A stretch of DNA of 64,000 nucleotides, taken from assembly GCA_964559765.1 (NCBI GenBank), contig CAZLHU010000002.1, forward strand, positions 10,075-74,074, given 5' to 3'. The translations under genes were made by a program, and so were the position numbers. How positions within the stretch are numbered: the first letter of the stretch is position 1; each line of letters starts with the position of its first letter. This DNA is from an uncultured Candidatus Saccharibacteria bacterium. Its GTDB lineage: Bacteria; Patescibacteriota; Minisyncoccia; UBA6257; Colwellbacteraceae. Below the pieces are notes generated by a model. It was not told the origin of the DNA, made no database searches, and saw nothing but the letters and a program-made list of their open reading frames with translations. Positions 43,294-62,647 of this stretch are shown here, piece by piece.

Positions 43294-43364
43294 CGGGCTG
43301 TCGTATAATGGTAGTGCACAAGGCTGGGGGTCTTGTAGTCTGGGTTCGATTCCCAGCAGCCCGA
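43294..43364 (+). tRNA. tRNA-Pro (anticodon GGG); CCA not encoded
   Basis: Manual fold. Acceptor CGGGCTG/CAGCCCG (C1:G72, A73, typical of bacterial tRNA-Pro). Anticodon loop CTGGGGG with G37. T-arm CTGGG-TTCGATT-CCCAG. Confidence 0.75.
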
Positions 43365-43405: not shown

Positions 43406-44008
43406 TTAGTTATTTGTTTCGATATTAGTGAATACCACAAGCCGATTGGAATAGCTCTTCTGGGCAGCGTTCCAAGTGCCTTCGCATGTAATCAGGTTGA
43501 GATGGGCTTGCCCGTCATTTGAATAGAAAACATCTGAGGCGTCGCCGTTTTGGTCATATAACCTAGATCCGCTCACGACAAACGTGGTGGTCGCCCCTTG
43601 TTCGTCTATAACGTATACTTTGTCCCCTTTTTGCAATTTATATAAATCGTCGAACACCGCCCATATGCCGTCCTTCCACCCCTCATGCCCAGCGATGACG
43701 GCACTGCCATCTTCCCCTGGTCGCGGCCCTAGATCAAACCACACCGTGCTGGTTGGACCCACCGGCACGCCCATTGCCCCCTGTGGCGTAAGGCCAACAT
43801 CCCCTATGGGGGCATCGACGTTCATTTTCGGAATTTTGAGTCGAACCGGGAGTCCTAATATGTTCTGTTGCAAGCTTTGCGGGACCTGGCTAGCAACCGG
43901 AGACGCCTGCTCGGATGGGCCTTTAAGGAGCAAAATAGACGCCAAACAGACAACCCCAACAACGGCGACAGCAACCAGCAACCATTTTAACAAAGTCTTA
44001 AACCGCAT
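43406..44008 (-). CDS. Sortase-family transpeptidase (membrane-anchored)
   Basis: N-terminal TM helix, catalytic His (AGHEGW) and the LNLITCEG (TLxTC) cysteine motif. Confidence 0.8.
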   Translation of the reverse strand: MRFKTLLKWLLVAVAVVGVVCLASILLLKGPSEQASPVASQVPQSLQQNILGLPVRLKIPKMNVDAPIGDVGLTPQGAMGVPVGPTSTVWFDLGPRPGEDGSAVIAGHEGWKDGIWAVFDDLYKLQKGDKVYVIDEQGATTTFVVSGSRLYDQNGDASDVFYSNDGQAHLNLITCEGTWNAAQKSYSNRLVVFTNIETNN

Positions 44009-44085: not shown

Positions 44086-44529
44086 CTATCCAGCTGGTTT
44101 TTCTTCCTTGGCTGGTTTATTCTTCGCCTCCTCGAGGAATTTTTTGACCTCTGCGACGAACTCTTCGTTACTGACGCCTTTCTGGATATAGTTCGTTACG
44201 CCTACATCCTTCATCCAGTTTTCCGCTTCAATGGACAAGTCAGAGTTCGTGAGAAACGCAATAGGGATATCAGCCGCGGGAGAACCTGGTTCGTTCCTGA
44301 TAAGATCGGCTGTTTTAAAACCATTACTACCAGGCATATTTATATCGAGCAAAATAAGATCGGGGTGGAATCTGCGCGCCATTTCCCGCCCAAGGTCGCC
44401 GTTTTCGGCATAGATGACCTCATAACCGGCCGATCCAAGCAGGCTGCCGAAAAGCCGCCGGCTCGTGGGATCGTCGTCGACTATTAAGATGTGTTTAGTG
44501 GTCGCTTTGTCTTTAATTACCTCATCCAT
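44086..44529 (-). CDS. Single-domain response-regulator receiver (CheY-like) with Lys/Glu-rich tail (start at MDEVIKDK)
   Basis: ILIVDDDPTSRRL..DLILLDINMPG..K in the canonical positions. Confidence 0.75.
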   Translation of the reverse strand: MDEVIKDKATTKHILIVDDDPTSRRLFGSLLGSAGYEVIYAENGDLGREMARRFHPDLILLDINMPGSNGFKTADLIRNEPGSPAADIPIAFLTNSDLSIEAENWMKDVGVTNYIQKGVSNEEFVAEVKKFLEEAKNKPAKEEKPAG

Positions 44530-44560
44530 GGTTTTATCCTTTATTTTATAATTTATTTTA

Positions 44561-44950
44561 TTATACAACCTTAGCGTCAAGAATTCCTCTAACTTTTTTC
44601 ACGATATCGCGGTACTCCCAATCGCTCTTAATCATAAAATCGAGAATCCCTATTTTTTTCGCCCGGGCGATGGTAGCGGAATCCTGAGAATTACTCCACA
44701 TGATGACGCGTGCATTTTTACCCCACTTGTCCTTACGAAGATTTTCAAGGAAATAAAAGCCGTCGGTATCGGGCATGAGATTATCGACAAGAATAAAGTC
44801 GGGGTGATTCTTTAGCGCGCTATCTAGGCCTTCTTTACCGTTCGTCGCCTTAAATACAGAGAAACCTTCATACGTAAACTTATCCGAAATGCCGTTCAGG
44901 ATGGATAGCTCGTCTTCAATGATTAACACTTTTCTTTGTGGCGTATCCAT
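44561..44950 (-). CDS. Single-domain response-regulator receiver (CheY-like)
   Basis: VLIIEDE..DFILVDNLMPDTDG motif; 129 aa, no output domain. Confidence 0.8.
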   Translation of the reverse strand: MDTPQRKVLIIEDELSILNGISDKFTYEGFSVFKATNGKEGLDSALKNHPDFILVDNLMPDTDGFYFLENLRKDKWGKNARVIMWSNSQDSATIARAKKIGILDFMIKSDWEYRDIVKKVRGILDAKVV

Positions 44951-44955
44951 ATTTT

Positions 44956-47154
44956 TTATTTTAATACCAACCTTCTGGTACCTTCTTTTTTCTTCATGCC
45001 TACAAGAGGGATTGTAACATAAAACGTCGATCCTTTATTTTCCGTCGATTCAAACCAGATTTTACCGCCCGTCTTTTCTATCGTTTCCTTGATAATATAC
45101 AATCCAAGTCCCGTGCCTTCAGGGTCCTTTACGCGTGCGTTGTCGGCCCTAAACATTTTAGTGAAGATCTTTGATTGCGCATCTTTGGGGATTCCATAAC
45201 CAGTATCAGCGACCGAAACAAGAATATTGGGTCCATCCTTTTTCATCGTTAGTGTGATACTCCCCTCTGGAGGGGTGTACTTTACCGCATTCGAAAACAA
45301 ATTCTGGAATATCATCCGGAGAATATTTAAATCAGCGTTAATTGGGGGAAGGTCTTTTTCGAGATTCTTATTTATAAGCAGTTTTTTATCATTAATATTC
45401 ACCTCGAGATCCTTGAGCGCCCCTTCTGCCACATTCTGAAGATTTACCTGTTCGGGTTCGACAACAAACACTCCCAAATCGACCCTAGAAACGTTGAGGA
45501 GTGCTGTAATTAAATTGATCATACGATCGTTGGAATTTTTTATTTCCGTCAGGTATTCACGCTGCTTGTCATTCAATGGCCCGGCATCTCCATCGATAAG
45601 CATGCCTGTGTATCCTTTGAGTGCTGTGAGAGGTGTGCGGAGTTGGTGTGAAGCGATAGAAACAAATTCATCTTTCGCCAGATCCAACGAACGCAATTCT
45701 TTGTTCGCTAATTCAACTTTTTCGGTTGTCGCAGCAAGTTGTTTCGCTTTAATATCGAGGTTTTTTGCAGTCACCAGTAACCTGCGCCGAACGCTTTCCC
45801 TTTCCTTGGCCGTTGTAGCAAGCTGCTTGGCCGTAACCACCAGCCTACTTCTCACGCTTTCCCTCTCCTTGGCAGTAGCAGCGAGTTGCTTGGCGGTAAC
45901 CTCTAATTTTTTTCGAACGCTTTCACGTTCTTTAGCCGTCGTAGCGAGCTTTTTGGCCGTGACCGCAAGCCTGTCTCTCACACTTTCTCTTTCCCTGGCA
46001 GTAACAGCAAGCTGCTTAGCTTTAAGTCGGAGCGTCTTTGCCGTCACTAACAATTTGCGCCTGACACTCTCCTTTTCCCTTGCAGTTGTGGCAAGATGCT
46101 TAGCGGTTATCACTAACTTATTTCTGACTTCTTCTCTTTCTTTGGCGGTTACGGCAAGTTTCCCTGCCGTCACAGCTAAGAGCTCCCTCGTTTTTTTTGT
46201 TTCGGTCACATCACGCGCAGCCGCGAACACGCCAAGCACATTACCTTTATTGTCTTTATAGACCGATGCATTATAGAGAACATCGATAAGCCTTCCATTT
46301 CTATGACGAATAGTAAGGGGGTAGTCAATAACCGATCCTGTTTTAAAAACTTGCTTATATCCCGCACGGGCTTTTTGGGGTTCGGTAAAATATTTTGAGA
46401 AATCAGTACCGATCAAATTCCCGCGCAACAAACCAGTTACCCGTCCCGTTGCCGCATTAACGTCAGTAATCTTTCCTTGCGGACTTATAACAACCAAGGG
46501 GTCGATGCCCGCCTCTATGAGACTGCGGGCGTACTGGTTTGTCAGTGCAATTTTCTCGGCAGTAGCGGCGAGCTGCTTGGCCCTAAGCCGAAGCGCCTCC
46601 GCTGTCACTGCCAGTTTACCCCTGATACTTTCACGTTCTTTAGCCGTCGTAGCGAGCTTTTTGGCCGTGACCGCAAGCCTGTCTCTCACACTTTCTCTTT
46701 CCCTGGCAGTAACAGCAAGCTGCTTAGCTTTAAGTCGGAGCGTCTTTGCCGTCACTAACAATTTGCGCCTGACACTCTCCTTTTCCCTAGCGACAGTAGC
46801 GAGTTGCTTAGCCTTAAGACGAAGATTTCTCGCCGTTACAAGCAGTTTGAGTCGAACATTTTCCCTTTCTTTTGCGGTCGTCGCAAGCTGTTTGGCTGTG
46901 ACCGCAAGTTGTTTGGCAACGACCTCTAATTTACGCCTGGCACTTTCCCTTTCACTAGCCGTCGTAGCGAGCTTTTTGGCCGTGACCGCAAGCCTGTCTC
47001 TGATGCTTTCCCTTTCTTCGGCAGTTATAGCGAGATGCTTAGCCGTCACTGCCAACTTACTCCTAACACCCTCCTTTTTCTTTGCCAAAACTTTAAGTTT
47101 AAGGATTGCGTTGTTGGCCCTGGAAGCAACTATTTTTTGTCCGTATTTTTTCAT
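44956..47154 (-). CDS. Cytoplasmic sensor histidine kinase: two ~8-9-unit arrays of a 22-aa coiled-coil repeat (LAVTAKKLATTAKERESVRxKL) flanking a PAS domain, then HisKA (ASHQLRTPL) and HATPase_c
   Basis: No TM helices. H-box IASHQLRTPLTAL; N, G1 and G2 boxes (NAVKYT, DTGYGIP, GTGLGL). Confidence 0.85.
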   Translation of the reverse strand: MKKYGQKIVASRANNAILKLKVLAKKKEGVRSKLAVTAKHLAITAEERESIRDRLAVTAKKLATTASERESARRKLEVVAKQLAVTAKQLATTAKERENVRLKLLVTARNLRLKAKQLATVAREKESVRRKLLVTAKTLRLKAKQLAVTARERESVRDRLAVTAKKLATTAKERESIRGKLAVTAEALRLRAKQLAATAEKIALTNQYARSLIEAGIDPLVVISPQGKITDVNAATGRVTGLLRGNLIGTDFSKYFTEPQKARAGYKQVFKTGSVIDYPLTIRHRNGRLIDVLYNASVYKDNKGNVLGVFAAARDVTETKKTRELLAVTAGKLAVTAKEREEVRNKLVITAKHLATTAREKESVRRKLLVTAKTLRLKAKQLAVTARERESVRDRLAVTAKKLATTAKERESVRKKLEVTAKQLAATAKERESVRSRLVVTAKQLATTAKERESVRRRLLVTAKNLDIKAKQLAATTEKVELANKELRSLDLAKDEFVSIASHQLRTPLTALKGYTGMLIDGDAGPLNDKQREYLTEIKNSNDRMINLITALLNVSRVDLGVFVVEPEQVNLQNVAEGALKDLEVNINDKKLLINKNLEKDLPPINADLNILRMIFQNLFSNAVKYTPPEGSITLTMKKDGPNILVSVADTGYGIPKDAQSKIFTKMFRADNARVKDPEGTGLGLYIIKETIEKTGGKIWFESTENKGSTFYVTIPLVGMKKKEGTRRLVLK
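45920..46080 (-). repeat. 161-bp perfect direct repeat, copy A (inside the histidine-kinase gene)
   Basis: Identical to 46628..46788. Offset 708 bp = 236 codons, in frame. Confidence 0.85.
46628..46788 (-). repeat. 161-bp perfect direct repeat, copy B (inside the histidine-kinase gene)
   Basis: Identical to 45920..46080. Confidence 0.85.
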
Positions 47155-47315
47155 ATATAAATTTCGCTTTATAATTTAATTTTTATTCCGGCTGTCCTTA
47201 ATATAATTATATCATTAGATTTCTTGGCCTTATTATTCCTACTTCCAAGAAGCCCCGCTTGTGAGCGAGGCTTCTCATTATCTCCGCAAGATACATCTAT
47301 TGACTTGGTCTCCGA

Positions 47316-47462
47316 TTATTTCCCCCTTATGATCCGTATTAGGATGACAATGATGGCAACGACGAGAAGAACATGAATCAGCCATCCCAATATGGGGAAA
47401 AAGATGAGCCCGACAAGCCACAAGACCACTAGCACAAATCCGACAGTTAGAAGTATGTCCAT
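47316..47462 (-). CDS. 48-aa two-helix membrane peptide, lmo0937-like family (too short for the ORF track)
   Basis: MDILLTVGFVLVVLWLVGLIFFPILGWLIHVLLVVAIIVILIRIIRGK; translated manually. Confidence 0.5.
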   Translation of the reverse strand: MDILLTVGFVLVVLWLVGLIFFPILGWLIHVLLVVAIIVILIRIIRGK

Positions 47463-47503
47463 CTTTGGTTTTAATGGTCTAACACCCCTACGTGATACTT
47501 ATG

Positions 47504-49360
47504 CTAAATCTTGCGCTTTTTTATGACTACGACCGACGAAACTGACGCCAATACCAAAAGGCCGACCAATGCTATGACATTCCAGGGAGTTTCATTGCTC
47601 TGAGGAGGATATCCTGTATTCGGAAGCTTCGGAGCGGCTACGGCGACAGCTACTGTCGATGAGTGGGTAACCGTAAAGCCGTTGGCGCTGCCCTGGGCCG
47701 TAGCGGTGTTCGTGGTCGTCTGGCTCAAATTCATCTGGCAAGAGTAAGTCCACGTTTCGCTTGGATCAAGCAACCCGTTGCTGTTAGCGTCGCCAGTAGG
47801 ACTGCTTATTTGGGAGCACTTGTTATCGACAAGCGTTACGTTGCTAAGCGGCACGGTGCCTGGATTGGTCACCAGATAGGTGTACGTAACCGATCCCCCG
47901 CCAGCGGGCAGGAATAATGGCGCAGGCACTTTTACCAAATTGATCAATGGCGGCACAACCGAAGACCCGACGACGACCGTAGCATTGGCTGTATCAGAGG
48001 CGATCAATCCGTTTGCCTTTCCGGTCGCGGTGACTGTGTCACTGGTTGTCTTAGAGAGCGTGGCAGTGCAACTATAGCTCCATTTATCACCCACACCGAG
48101 CGTTGAATTGGGATTTATACTCCCGGAAATGGTGACGGGACTGCACTCATTGTCGGTTACCGTCACATTGGTCATGGGAACTATCCCAACATTCGATACT
48201 GTGTAATTGTATGTGACAGTCCCCGGTCCAGAGGGTAGAGCCAGAGGGCTGGGTATCTTCGTGACGTTTATCAGTGGCGGCACGGGCACTACCGCTAAAG
48301 CCACATCACTGTTGGTCAGATAGCAAACGTAATTATGACTGCTGCCGGCCGTAACGGTTATCTGACCATTGGCATTACAATCGCCGGAAAAAGTGGCCTT
48401 ATACTTAGAAATATTATTGGTCTCGGTAACTTTATAGGTACCCGAAGCCAAATATACTGTATTACCAGAGGTTACGGGCGTTCCGCTTACAAATAAGGGG
48501 AAATTGGCAGCAGTCGACGTTCCGCCATTATCGTTTATGACCTCCTTGAAAATAGTGACACTGTTTAGACTACTGCCCAGCGAAGATCCACCGGACGTGG
48601 TAACTGGAGCTGAACACGTCGGTACAATTATATGGTCCGTATCACCGGTCGTAATTGTCCCGTTAAGCAGCGATATTGCGCTTCCTGTCCACGTGGTGTT
48701 GTCGCCGACGGTAATGGCGTTATTATTGTCTATGTCCGTTCCGATGAACGTCGTATTGGCGGCAAGCGTCGTAGCCGCAGTCGCCGTCCAAAAGACATTG
48801 CAGGCTGATGCGCCATTAGACAATGTGATAACTGAGCCGGCATCCGAAGTTAGAGCGCCATCGGCTCTAAAGATATATGTCCCGCTGCCGTTCAGGGTTA
48901 CATTGCCTCCAACATCCATGGCTCCCGTACTGCAATACACTCCAGGAGTATAGACGCCTACGGTGCCGGGATGCGACGTGTCAGTGGCAAGGTCCACACT
49001 CCCACCTACCAGAGTGAAGGTGAACGTACATGGCTGACTAGCAATGCCGGTAGATACATTTGATAGGGCATTCGATGCGTCTGTAAGCGCCTGAGAATAA
49101 GGAGCTACTGAGCCGTAGTATGTATTCTGCGCACCCAACGAAGGTTTAACGCTCGGTCCAGTCGTGAATCCTACGTCCCCATTGATCGACGTGGCCGCCC
49201 AAGAGTTGCTATAGGTGCTGCCGGCTAGGACGCCATAGGTCGACGCCATTCCAAGAGATGGAGATGTTTGCGCGAATGCAGTAACCGGCCCAGTCAGGCC
49301 GAATATGAGAGATACGGCAAACGCCGTTGTTATTACTAATACGTTATTAAATCTTTTCAT
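47504..49360 (-). CDS. Cell-wall-anchored surface protein: signal peptide, ice-binding-like (DUF3494-type) domain, two DUF11 repeats, LPNTG sorting signal with hydrophobic helix and KKRKI tail
   Basis: N-terminus MKRFNNVLVITTAFAVSLIFG..AFAQ. DUF3494-like ASTYGVLAGSTYSNSWAATSINGDVGF. DUF11-like NVTVTDNECSPVTISG..WSYSC. C-terminus KLPNTGYPPQ..VIALVGLLVLASV..KKRKI. Confidence 0.8.
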   Translation of the reverse strand: MKRFNNVLVITTAFAVSLIFGLTGPVTAFAQTSPSLGMASTYGVLAGSTYSNSWAATSINGDVGFTTGPSVKPSLGAQNTYYGSVAPYSQALTDASNALSNVSTGIASQPCTFTFTLVGGSVDLATDTSHPGTVGVYTPGVYCSTGAMDVGGNVTLNGSGTYIFRADGALTSDAGSVITLSNGASACNVFWTATAATTLAANTTFIGTDIDNNNAITVGDNTTWTGSAISLLNGTITTGDTDHIIVPTCSAPVTTSGGSSLGSSLNSVTIFKEVINDNGGTSTAANFPLFVSGTPVTSGNTVYLASGTYKVTETNNISKYKATFSGDCNANGQITVTAGSSHNYVCYLTNSDVALAVVPVPPLINVTKIPSPLALPSGPGTVTYNYTVSNVGIVPMTNVTVTDNECSPVTISGSINPNSTLGVGDKWSYSCTATLSKTTSDTVTATGKANGLIASDTANATVVVGSSVVPPLINLVKVPAPLFLPAGGGSVTYTYLVTNPGTVPLSNVTLVDNKCSQISSPTGDANSNGLLDPSETWTYSCQMNLSQTTTNTATAQGSANGFTVTHSSTVAVAVAAPKLPNTGYPPQSNETPWNVIALVGLLVLASVSSVVVIKKRKI

Positions 49361-62571: not shown

Positions 62572-62647
62572 TGGTGCCCCCAGCAGGGATCGAACCTGCG
62601 ACCGTCTCCTTAAAAGGGAGCTGCTCTACCGACTGAGCTATAGGGGC
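62572..62647 (-). tRNA. tRNA-Lys (anticodon UUU), CCA encoded
   Basis: Reverse complement is GCCCCTATAGCTCAGTCGGTAGAGCAGCTCCCTTTTAAGGAGACGGTCGCAGGTTCGATCCCTGCTGGGGGCACCA. Anticodon loop CTTTTAA. T-loop TTCGATC. Confidence 0.8.

What the first reader, a model, noticed from the sequence alone, without database searches (positions are those of the whole stretch)
44956..47154. Histidine kinase built from 22-residue coiled-coil repeats, with a 161-bp perfect in-frame DNA duplication bracketing its PAS domain
The kinase has no membrane segments. About 60% of it consists of a 22-aa repeat, LAVTAKKLATTAKERESVRxKL (two hendecads), in two arrays on either side of a PAS domain. At the DNA level, two 161-bp segments (45920-46080 and 46628-46788) are 100% identical and exactly 708 bp (236 codons) apart. 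RecA-dependent or slipped recombination between them would delete or duplicate the PAS-containing unit in frame. That would change the coiled-coil ruler length or the sensor content. Such perfect long repeats inside a signalling gene are candidates for programmed length or phase variation.
Basis: seen in the sequence. Interest (0 to 1): 0.6.

Follow-up and report, generated by a model that had tools for sequence, protein, structure and literature searches.

The report
Heptad-repeat histidine kinase with internal duplication
A soluble bacterial sensor kinase made largely of a long seven-residue-repeat coiled coil carries a recent 161-base internal copy on either side of its PAS sensor domain. 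It belongs to an undescribed family whose rod length changes in whole seven-residue steps through recombination between repeats, and nothing shows a programmed switch.

Summary
ORF 44956-47154 (-) encodes a soluble 732-aa HisKA kinase. Its order is leader, 27-heptad coil, PAS, then a 23-heptad coil that runs in register into the DHp helix.

- **Repeat unit:** 21 or 28 aa (3-4 heptads), not 22-aa hendecads. The arrays make up about 48% of the protein, not 60%.
- **Duplication:** the two 161-bp copies, 708 bp apart, are confirmed. Together with a 46-bp third copy they are the only exact repeats of 30 bp or more in the 64-kb window.
- **Independent support:** a k141 assembly of the same strain breaks exactly 141 nt into the repeat.
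- **Family:** the gene belongs to a family of about 60 Patescibacteria kinases that I could not find described. The N-terminal coil varies from 20 to 66 heptads, yet leader-to-His spacing is 2 mod 7 in all 12 orthologs measured. Most members lack PAS.
- **Repeats in orthologs:** long perfect internal repeats recur (138, 135, 82, 71 bp). Two near-identical strains differ by a 147-bp (7-heptad) indel bounded by a 47-bp direct repeat.

Repeat-mediated, in-frame length change is therefore documented in this family. The 161-bp identity is best read as a recent gene conversion or duplication. Recombination between the copies would give a family-typical coil-only kinase. Nothing indicates programmed switching.

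The parts
44956..47154 (-). Histidine kinase CDS, 732 aa, soluble. Order: leader, coil array A, PAS, coil array B, DHp (HisKA), CA (HATPase_c).
   Evidence: ORF. Pfam domains. No TM segment. The exact protein is on JGI contig Ga0455670_0000046.
47056..47154 (-). Conserved N-terminal leader (aa 1-33, '...ILKLKVLAKKKEGVRSKL'). It is shared by the whole family and already lies in heptad register.
   Evidence: Family sequences. Register.
46531..47097 (-). Coil array A, aa 20-208. It has 27 unbroken heptads (position 1 Leu, position 4 Thr/Val, position 5 Ala; every 3rd or 4th heptad reads RESVRxK) and runs into the PAS N-cap helix.
   Evidence: Heptad table and column composition. Autocorrelation. 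Predicted helical.
46628..46788 (-). Perfect 161-bp repeat, copy 1 (aa 123-176, inside array A).
46956..47001 (-). A 46-bp exact third partial copy of the repeat, in array A. It is identical to 46641-46686 and 45933-45978.
46180..46554 (-). PAS cassette (aa 201-325; Pfam PAS at 210-320). It is 124 aa (7n+5) of the widespread 'SLIEASLDPLVTISPEGKITDVN...DVLYNASVYKD' subtype.
   Evidence: Pfam. 70-77% identity to PAS repeats from many phyla. PAS fold in the AF2 model at residues 217-316.
45697..46179 (-). Coil array B, aa 326-486. It has 23 heptads in unbroken register into DHp helix 1. Compared with PAS-bearing relatives it amounts to a 22-heptad insertion in the PAS-DHp linker.
   Evidence: D(VT)-to-His distance is 188 = 34 + 22x7. 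The helix at 435-521 runs through His503.
45920..46080 (-). Perfect 161-bp repeat, copy 2 (aa 359-412, inside array B).
   Evidence: The independent contig L162 starts at 46060, 141 nt into this copy.
45475..45678 (-). HisKA/DHp domain (aa 493-560). The phospho-acceptor His503 codon is at 45646-45648.
   Evidence: Pfam HisKA at 65.4 bits. H-box SHQLRTP.
45004..45333 (-). HATPase_c catalytic domain (aa 608-717).
   Evidence: Pfam at 95.5 bits. Foldseek matches to HK853, WalK and YF1.
44561..44950 (-). Single-domain response regulator 1 (129 aa). It starts 5 nt after the kinase stop codon.
   Evidence: The kinase plus two receiver genes are conserved in L002, L082, L083, L158 and L159.
44086..44580 (-). 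Single-domain response regulator 2 (160-164 aa). It overlaps the end of regulator 1.

Best explanation
WHAT IT IS. The gene encodes a cytoplasmic homodimeric HisKA histidine kinase. It sits in an operon with two stand-alone receiver proteins. Its N-terminal extension is one long canonical heptad coiled coil that continues into DHp helix 1. A PAS sensor is spliced in-line, 22 heptads further from the phospho-acceptor His than in relatives but in the same angular register.

FAMILY. It is a PAS-bearing member of a Patescibacteria kinase family that I could not find described. In most members the only 'sensor' is the coil.

HOW THE ARRAY CHANGES. The array is built from 63- and 84-nt DNA units. 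It evolves by unequal recombination, slippage and gene conversion between units, so its length changes only in whole heptads.

THE 161-bp COPIES. They are the trace of one recent such event in this lineage. That event was either a conversion or copy-paste patch between the two otherwise 45-76% identical arrays, or a by-product of the rearrangement that put PAS between them. The copies are a passive recombination substrate. At the low spontaneous rate expected for a 161-bp direct repeat, they can excise the PAS unit and leave a family-typical coil-only kinase. They are not a dedicated switching device.

SHOWN: domain order, heptad register, the duplication, family-wide length variation, and a strain-level indel in an ortholog.

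INFERRED: the parallel dimer, signal transmission along the coil, conversion as the origin of the copies, and the recombination rate.
For: - **Period and register:** the period is 7/21/28 aa and the register is unbroken from the leader to the DHp.
- **Invariant spacing:** leader-to-His distance is 2 mod 7 in 12 of 12 coil-only orthologs while the heptad count runs from 20 to 66.
- **PAS-to-His spacing:** D(VT)-to-His is 34 in six PAS-bearing relatives and 188 = 34 + 22x7 here. This matches the heptad rule for PAS-DHp linkers (PMC6798134).
- **The repeat is an outlier patch with sharp edges:** 100% against 76% or less elsewhere. The closest orthologs are only about 78% identical at DNA level, so the event post-dates the species splits.
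- **Perfect repeats recur at other positions in orthologs:** L088 138 bp, L002 135 bp, L093 82 bp, L100/L104 71 bp. All their offsets are multiples of 21 nt.
- **Strain-level indel:** L158 and L159 have flanks 97.8-99.3% identical. Their genes differ by 3 mismatches plus a 147-bp, 7-heptad indel bounded by a 47-bp perfect direct repeat in the long allele.
- **Deletion product:** it has 35 heptads + 2, identical in spacing to the syntenic ortholog L002.
- **No switching device:** no inverted repeat in or beside the gene, and no recombinase among the annotated neighbours.
- **Independent corroboration of the repeat** from a k141 assembly.
Against: - No reads were available. The copy number of the 708-bp unit and any heterogeneity in the population are untested.
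- The direction and mechanism of the event cannot be resolved, because orthology within the arrays is scrambled. The candidates are conversion, duplication, and a footprint of PAS acquisition or gene fusion.
- Recurrent perfect repeats and frequent contig breaks in the arrays would also be seen if these loci really do vary at high frequency.
- The dimeric parallel coiled coil and signalling through 22 extra heptads are inferred. The AF2 model is a monomer with pLDDT of only 60-75 in the arrays.
Confidence: 0.6

Rival explanations
1. Contingency locus. The 161-bp repeats drive frequent, selectable gain and loss of the PAS unit (0, 1 or 2 PAS). Subpopulations would then carry a ligand-blind coil-only kinase or a double-sensor kinase.
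For: - Both products are in frame.
- The deletion product has the exact family register and a natural counterpart, L002.
- PAS-less and PAS-bearing genes coexist within a clade that is 90% identical in the kinase core.
- A strain-level, repeat-bounded indel exists in an ortholog.
- 9 of 23 ortholog contigs end inside the array. Strain heterogeneity could contribute to that.
Against: - No variant of this gene is on record. The exact deletion and duplication products are absent from about 15 billion proteins. The closest PAS-less relatives are no more than 87% identical.
- Deletion is not reversible without a donor.
- A 161-bp repeat gives only ordinary spontaneous rates (my own knowledge of E. 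coli direct-repeat deletion, roughly 1e-5 to 1e-4).
- No recombinase, simple-sequence repeat or inverted repeat was seen in or beside the gene.
- Contig breaks are fully explained by repeats longer than k.
Confidence: 0.1
2. Assembly artefact. The two copies are really diverged and were homogenised by consensus or polishing, or the contig is a chimeric path through a shared repeat that joins a coil-only allele to a PAS-bearing allele, or the copy number of the 708-bp unit is wrong.
For: - This is a metagenome contig.
- The arrays break many short-read assemblies.
- 161 bp exceeds common k values, so the path needed pair or long-read information that I cannot inspect.
Against: - An independent sample and assembler gives 99.98% identical sequence, and its contig ends exactly k = 141 nt into the repeat. 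That is the signature of a true duplication of at least 141 bp.
- Any read-consistent path must place the PAS segment between two copies at least once.
- Both junctions keep the family's registers. A random chimera would do that with a chance of about 1/7 per junction.
- Orthologs carry comparable perfect repeats.
Confidence: 0.12
3. Footprint of PAS acquisition or gene fusion. The duplication arose in the same event that placed a 'leader-coil-PAS' module in front of a complete coil-only kinase. That event could be an unequal exchange with a paralogue or related strain, or single-crossover integration of an R-bearing DNA segment, which by itself leaves direct repeats around the insert.
For: - The window gene is nested among coil-only genes.
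- Array B is unit-for-unit collinear with the N-terminal array of L002 (71.9% nt identity over 413 nt), as if B were a complete short array.
- The coil-to-PAS junction phase is the same as in P0089.
- The segment absent from L085 and L002 corresponds to PAS plus the start of B plus copy 2.
Against: - The copies do not abut the PAS cassette. They lie about 25 aa (copy 1) and 33 aa (copy 2) away from it.
- The rest of arrays A and B is old and diverged, so a single recent event does not explain the whole structure.
- No paralogue lies in the 64-kb window.
- PAS identity to P0089 (77.6%) equals kinase-core identity to it (77.3%), which fits vertical descent.
Confidence: 0.15
4. Nucleotide-level selection keeps the two segments identical, for example through an RNA element or an internal regulatory site present twice.
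For: None specific. The only point is zero synonymous differences over 53 codons.
Against: - Orthologs have perfect repeats at different positions and of different sequence.
- The Rfam scan of the window finds only two tRNAs.
- The patch boundaries do not coincide with any feature.
Confidence: 0.02

Closest known systems
PAS/LOV - coiled-coil - DHp sensor kinases (FixL, YF1, VicK/WalK type) with heptad-periodic linkers
   Same: - It has a PAS C-terminal D(V/I)T motif, a helical linker and a HisKA DHp.
- The linker length obeys a 7n + constant rule (rule described in PMC6798134).
- The kinase core matches HK853, WalK, VicK and YF1 structurally.
   Different: - The linker is 188 residues, against 27-34 in relatives, and is made of near-identical 21/28-aa units.
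- A second, 27-heptad coil precedes the PAS.
- Most family members have no PAS at all.
- No NCBIfam equivalog reaches its cut-off.
Signalling helix (S-helix) and BvgS-type coiled-coil linkers
   Same: A parallel coiled-coil segment directly N-terminal to the DHp is presumed to carry the signal (PMC1592074 and PMC5829827, listed).
   Different: - The S-helix is a single conserved segment of about 40 residues.
- Here the coil is 140-460 residues, repetitive and hypervariable in length, with an unusual core (Leu at position 1, Thr/Val at position 4, Ala at position 5, and Arg at position 1 of every 3rd or 4th heptad).
- S-helix motif membership was not tested.
Size-variable coiled-coil repeat proteins (e.g. 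streptococcal M proteins) and other tandem-repeat genes that evolve by intragenic recombination
   Same: - Heptad-based DNA repeats.
- In-frame gain and loss of blocks between direct repeats.
- Concerted evolution with patches of perfect identity.
- The comparison with M proteins rests on my own knowledge.
   Different: Those are surface antigens under immune selection. This is a cytoplasmic signalling enzyme in which the register to the catalytic His is strictly kept.
Classical contingency or phase-variable loci (simple-sequence slippage, invertible promoters, shufflons)
   Same: A repeat inside a coding region can change the product without point mutation.
   Different: - There is no homopolymer or short-unit tract, no inverted repeat in or beside the gene, and no recombinase among the annotated neighbours.
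- The change is not an ON/OFF frameshift.
- Deletion is effectively one-way.
Multi-PAS 'PAS S-box' kinases with tandem near-identical PAS repeats
   Same: The PAS is the same subtype, 70-77% identical across phyla. The outgroup orthologs P0032 and P0087 have five copies in front of the same kinase core.
   Different: Here a single PAS is embedded in coil arrays rather than in a PAS tandem.

Membership tests
HisKA-type sensor histidine kinase | DHp with an H-box His (HisKA profile) followed by a GHKL ATPase domain | tested here: met
   PF00512 at 65.4 bits (cut-off 26.9) and PF02518 at 95.5 bits (cut-off 26.4). SHQLRTP H-box with His503. Foldseek matches to HK853 and WalK at E 1e-18 to 1e-21.
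HisKA-type sensor histidine kinase | A cognate receiver-domain partner encoded nearby | tested here: met
   Two Response_reg genes lie immediately downstream. The arrangement is conserved in orthologous loci.
PAS-domain sensor | PAS fold profile above threshold and a five-stranded sheet | tested here: met
   PAS_9 at 47.3 bits (cut-off 27) and PAS at 42.6 bits (cut-off 22.6). The AF2 model shows strands between residues 221 and 315. Ligand or cofactor was not testable.
Heptad (7/2) coiled-coil signalling linker | Seven-residue periodicity, unbroken register into the DHp, and linker lengths within the family that differ by multiples of 7 | tested here: met
   Autocorrelation peaks at 21, 28, 42, 49 and 56. 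Heptad table. Leader-to-His is 2 mod 7 in 12 of 12 orthologs. D-to-His is 34, 27 or 188, all 6 mod 7. Dimer state and parallel orientation are not testable here.
   No autocorrelation peak at 11, 22 or 33. DNA periods are 63 and 84 nt.
Phase-variable or contingency locus | A hypermutable device such as a simple-sequence tract, an invertible segment with a recombinase, or a cassette system | tested here: not met
   Only 63/84-nt units and the 161-bp direct repeat are present. There is no inverted repeat in 44500-47600, TRF finds no short-unit tract within the gene, and no recombinase family was assigned to any called neighbour within about 5 kb.
Phase-variable or contingency locus | Length heterogeneity within a single strain population | not testable with these tools
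   No reads were available. Database look-ups found no variant of this gene. An ortholog shows an indel between two 98-99% identical strains.
Tandem-repeat gene under concerted evolution | Patches of within-gene identity far above between-species identity, repeat-bounded indels between close relatives, and variable copy number among orthologs | tested here: met
   Within-gene identity is 100%, against about 65-78% between species. Repeat-bounded indel. Range of 20-66 heptads. Recurrent perfect repeats.

The most novel reading that the evidence does not exclude
These Patescibacteria kinases use a repeat-encoded coiled coil as a length-tunable element that changes in whole-heptad steps. In this gene the 161-bp repeats act as a real contingency switch that turns the PAS input off (deletion) or doubles it (duplication) in subpopulations. 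Recombination would then rewire a two-component sensor rather than regulation doing so. A PAS domain that signals through about 27 nm of coiled coil would also be the longest natural PAS-DHp linker that I know of.
Probability: 0.1. Interest if true: 0.75.

Novelty: new variant of a known kind. Interest (0 to 1): 0.42.

Why it matters
The duplication itself is ordinary tandem-repeat dynamics. The family it exposes is more useful.

- **A natural length series:** roughly 60 soluble kinases form a series of coiled-coil input helices from 20 to 66 heptads. All are locked to one register relative to the phospho-acceptor His.
- **A very long PAS linker:** one member places a PAS domain 22 extra heptads from the DHp without changing phase.
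- **What this offers:** it is a ready-made test set for how far, and by what motion, signals travel along coiled coils in two-component sensors.
- **A small example of domain evolution:** in tiny CPR genomes, sensor domains can be lost or gained in one in-frame step by recombination between flanking repeats.
- **A practical warning:** these genes fragment short-read assemblies, so they are under-represented and mis-annotated.

Tried and rejected
- **Hendecad or 22-aa periodicity:** rejected by autocorrelation and DNA periods.
- **Exact look-up of the predicted 496-aa deletion and 968-aa duplication products:** neither is on record.
- **Search for near-identical PAS-less alleles with the C-terminal 320 aa:** the best hit is 87% identical. 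Only an identical C-terminal fragment, P0156, turned up, and its contig could not be retrieved.
- **Paralogues in the window as conversion donors:** none found.
- **Resolving PAS gain versus loss with a neighbour-joining tree of kinase cores:** the window gene is nested among coil-only genes. PAS-bearing forms with the same 34-residue linker sit deeper in the tree and in the outgroup, so the polarity stays unresolved.
- **Mapping orthology of individual repeat units against L085, L002 and L082:** the mapping is scrambled, at 65-72% identity everywhere.
- **Known-family searches for the coil:** there are only faint chance Pfam hits (PhageMin_Tail, DUF3540) below their cut-offs. No NCBIfam model reaches its cut-off. 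The PAS has no PDB sequence match.
- **Literature searches:** nothing on this family or on its PAS motif strings.
- **AF2 monomer model:** it confirms helices and the PAS fold. It folds the rods back at low-confidence breaks (residues 149-162 and 423-438), so it says nothing about oligomer state or about A/B packing.
- **Rfam scan:** only two tRNAs, and no RNA element in the repeat.
Full report
**1. Observation**

The minus-strand ORF 44956-47154 encodes a 732-aa protein. Pfam finds PAS at aa 210-320, HisKA at 493-560 and HATPase_c at 608-717, all above their curated thresholds. No hydrophobic segment reaches a transmembrane level; the highest 19-residue hydropathy mean is 1.51, inside the DHp.

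The two segments 45920-46080 and 46628-46788 are identical over 161 bp at an offset of 708 bp. Identity collapses immediately beyond one edge and within about 25 nt beyond the other. This is far beyond chance:
- In-phase 161-nt window pairs within the arrays average 44% identity, and the best pair off this diagonal reaches 76%.
- In the whole 64-kb window, the only exact repeats of 30 bp or more are this pair and a 46-bp third copy at 46956-47001.

The window comes from JGI metagenome contig Ga0455670_0000046, which is 411 kb long. I looked up the downstream response regulator by exact sequence and found four further contigs of the same strain. One is a MEGAHIT k141 contig from another sample. 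It matches the window with 1 mismatch in 5,077 bp and starts exactly 141 nt into repeat copy 45920-46080. A k = 141 assembler does this when at least 141 bp is truly duplicated. I therefore take the duplication to be real.

**2.

The repeat is not 22 residues or two hendecads:
- DNA periods are 63 and 84 nt.
- Protein autocorrelation peaks at 21, 28, 42, 49 and 56.
- Written in sevens, both arrays are unbroken heptad strings with Leu at position 1, Thr/Val at position 4 and Ala at position 5. Every third or fourth heptad reads RESVRxK.

Array A spans aa 20-208 (27 heptads) and array B spans aa 326-486 (23 heptads). Together they make 48% of the protein, not about 60%. Array B runs without a phase break into the DHp helix that carries His503. 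The AF2 monomer model has mean pLDDT 69.6, with 60-75 in the arrays. It predicts long helices, a PAS fold at residues 217-316, and one helix from 435 to 521 that passes through His503.

**3. Family context**

- **The PAS subtype.** A whole-protein search was dominated by multi-PAS proteins from many phyla. Their PAS repeats are 70-77% identical to this one.
- **How rare the coil is.** A search with the coil alone found only 34 proteins, many of them fragments at contig ends.
- **The family.** Scans with the kinase core recovered about 60 Patescibacteria kinases at 65-90% identity. They share:
  - an N-terminal leader (MNKKT..S...NTILKLKVLAKKKEGVRSKL);
  - the same heptad units;
  - the same junction into the DHp (VELANKELRSLDLAKDEFVSIASHQLRTPL).
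- **PAS content.** Almost all members have no PAS, so the coil is their only input region.
- **The nearest genome.** The closest public genome is a MAG labelled Candidatus Saccharibacteria (L002). It has the gene in the same neighbourhood: an ice-binding-like surface protein upstream, then two receivers and a sortase downstream. It is a 493-aa coil-only form.
- **Position in the tree.** In a neighbour-joining tree of kinase cores, the window gene is nested in a 90%-identity clade of coil-only genes.

**4. Length varies only in whole heptads**

In 12 of 12 coil-only orthologs with a recognisable leader, the distance from the leader Leu to the phospho-acceptor His is 2 mod 7. The number of heptads ranges over 20, 20, 24, 24, 25, 28, 30, 35, 36, 36, 38 and 58/66.

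In the six PAS-bearing relatives of this kinase core, the distance from the PAS D(V/I)T Asp to the His is always 34. Two more distant kinases have 27. In the window gene it is 188 = 34 + 22x7. So array B behaves as a 22-heptad insertion in the PAS-DHp linker that keeps the angular phase. This is the same heptad rule established for LOV/PAS kinases such as YF1 (PMC6798134).

The predicted recombinant between the two 161-bp copies is a 496-aa protein. Its leader-to-His distance is 247 = 35 heptads + 2, which is family-typical and equal to L002.

**5. Is the repeat a switch?**

Evidence that repeat-mediated change happens in this family:
- Long perfect internal repeats occur in several orthologs at different positions: L088 138 bp, L002 135 bp, L093 82 bp, L100/L104 71 bp, L116 62 bp and L085 57 bp. 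All their offsets are multiples of 21 nt.
- 9 of 23 metagenome loci begin inside the array.
- Two loci from different samples, L158 and L159, have flanks 97.8-99.3% identical. Their genes differ by 3 mismatches and one 147-bp (7-heptad) indel. In the long allele that indel is bounded by a 47-bp perfect direct repeat.

This is direct evidence for recent, in-frame, repeat-mediated length change between closely related strains.

Evidence against a programmed device:
- No simple-sequence tract and no inverted repeat lies in or beside the gene, and no neighbouring gene was assigned to a recombinase family.
- The exact deletion and duplication products are absent from the protein collection.
- The closest PAS-less relatives are no more than 87% identical.
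- Deletion would be one-way.
- The contig breaks are explained by repeat length relative to k.

**6. Best explanation and its limits**

The 161-bp identity is a recent patch in arrays that are otherwise as diverged from each other (45-76%) as from orthologous arrays in other species (65-72%). A gene conversion or a copy-paste duplication within a concertedly evolving repeat is the simplest account.

I could not decide whether PAS is ancestral, with many one-step losses, or was acquired or fused in this lineage.
- **For acquisition or fusion:** the gene is nested among coil-only genes, and array B is unit-for-unit collinear with the N-terminal array of L002.
- **For vertical descent:** the coil-to-PAS junction phase matches P0089, and PAS identity to P0089 (77.6%) equals kinase-core identity to it (77.3%).

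I also could not exclude an error in the copy number of the 708-bp unit.

On function, I infer a parallel dimeric rod continuous with the DHp, with the PAS signal passed along array B. The weak core (Thr, Ala and periodic Arg) suggests marginal stability, but this is untested.

**7. Comparison and verdict**

The protein is a bona fide HisKA kinase with a PAS domain and a heptad-periodic coiled-coil linker (see the membership rows). It differs from FixL/YF1/WalK-type kinases and from the S-helix in the length of the coil, its repetitive nature and its hypervariable length.

Its DNA behaviour resembles that of size-variable coiled-coil surface proteins rather than classical phase-variable loci. 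I found no description of the family.

Overall, the duplication is ordinary repeat dynamics. The family-level pattern of heptad-step length change is of moderate interest.

Noticed in passing
window 45494-46261 (+) and 46505-47179 (+): Long antisense ORFs (255 and 224 aa) across the arrays also read 'LAVTAS...'-type heptads. The codon string GCN-GTN-ACN-GCN (A-V-T-A) is self-complementary in a shifted frame. They look like mirror ORFs created by the repeat, not genes.
   Followed up: no
window 43406-44008 (-) and 47504-49360 (-): The kinase and its two receivers sit between a sortase gene and a 618-aa protein. That protein has ice-binding-like and DUF7507 domains and a C-terminal LPNTG sorting signal followed by a hydrophobic tail. 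The same synteny is seen in L002. The JGI gene call starts that protein 147 codons later (471 aa).
   Followed up: partly
L002 2502-4823 (+): The orthologous surface protein in the related MAG contains an exactly duplicated block of about 100 aa (PPTPATLHVVKLVVNANGST...CTITNTNNT, present twice). Perfect internal duplications are therefore not confined to the kinase in these genomes.
   Followed up: no
window 46180-46554 (-); proteins P0001-P0120: The PAS subtype (SLIEASLDPLVTISPEGKITDVNEAT...DVLYNASVYKD) is 70-77% identical across many phyla and one archaeal group. It occurs in many tandem copies per protein (nine, by my count, in P0001). It has no PDB sequence match at E<1e-3, so its ligand appears to be unknown.
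   Followed up: partly
L088, P0165, P0177, P0180, P0189, P0199: Several orthologs carry two copies of the N-terminal leader, about 56 aa apart. The 5' end of the gene therefore also duplicates.
   Followed up: no
L083 4001-5163: One ortholog (P0122) is split into a 287-aa and a 66-aa ORF. An otherwise identical intact 387-aa allele (P0161) exists in other samples. This is a probable frameshift, either a pseudogene or a sequencing error.
   Followed up: no
L097, L102, L105; P0211-P0227: The same kinase core (77-81% identical) also occurs behind a membrane-anchored CHASE3-like sensor (PF05227), with or without the same PAS. The core therefore swaps input modules freely within Patescibacteria. 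L002 has such a paralogue immediately upstream of the coil kinase.
   Followed up: partly
window 43294-43364 (+) and 62575-62647 (-): These two tRNA genes are the only Rfam matches in the window.
   Followed up: no
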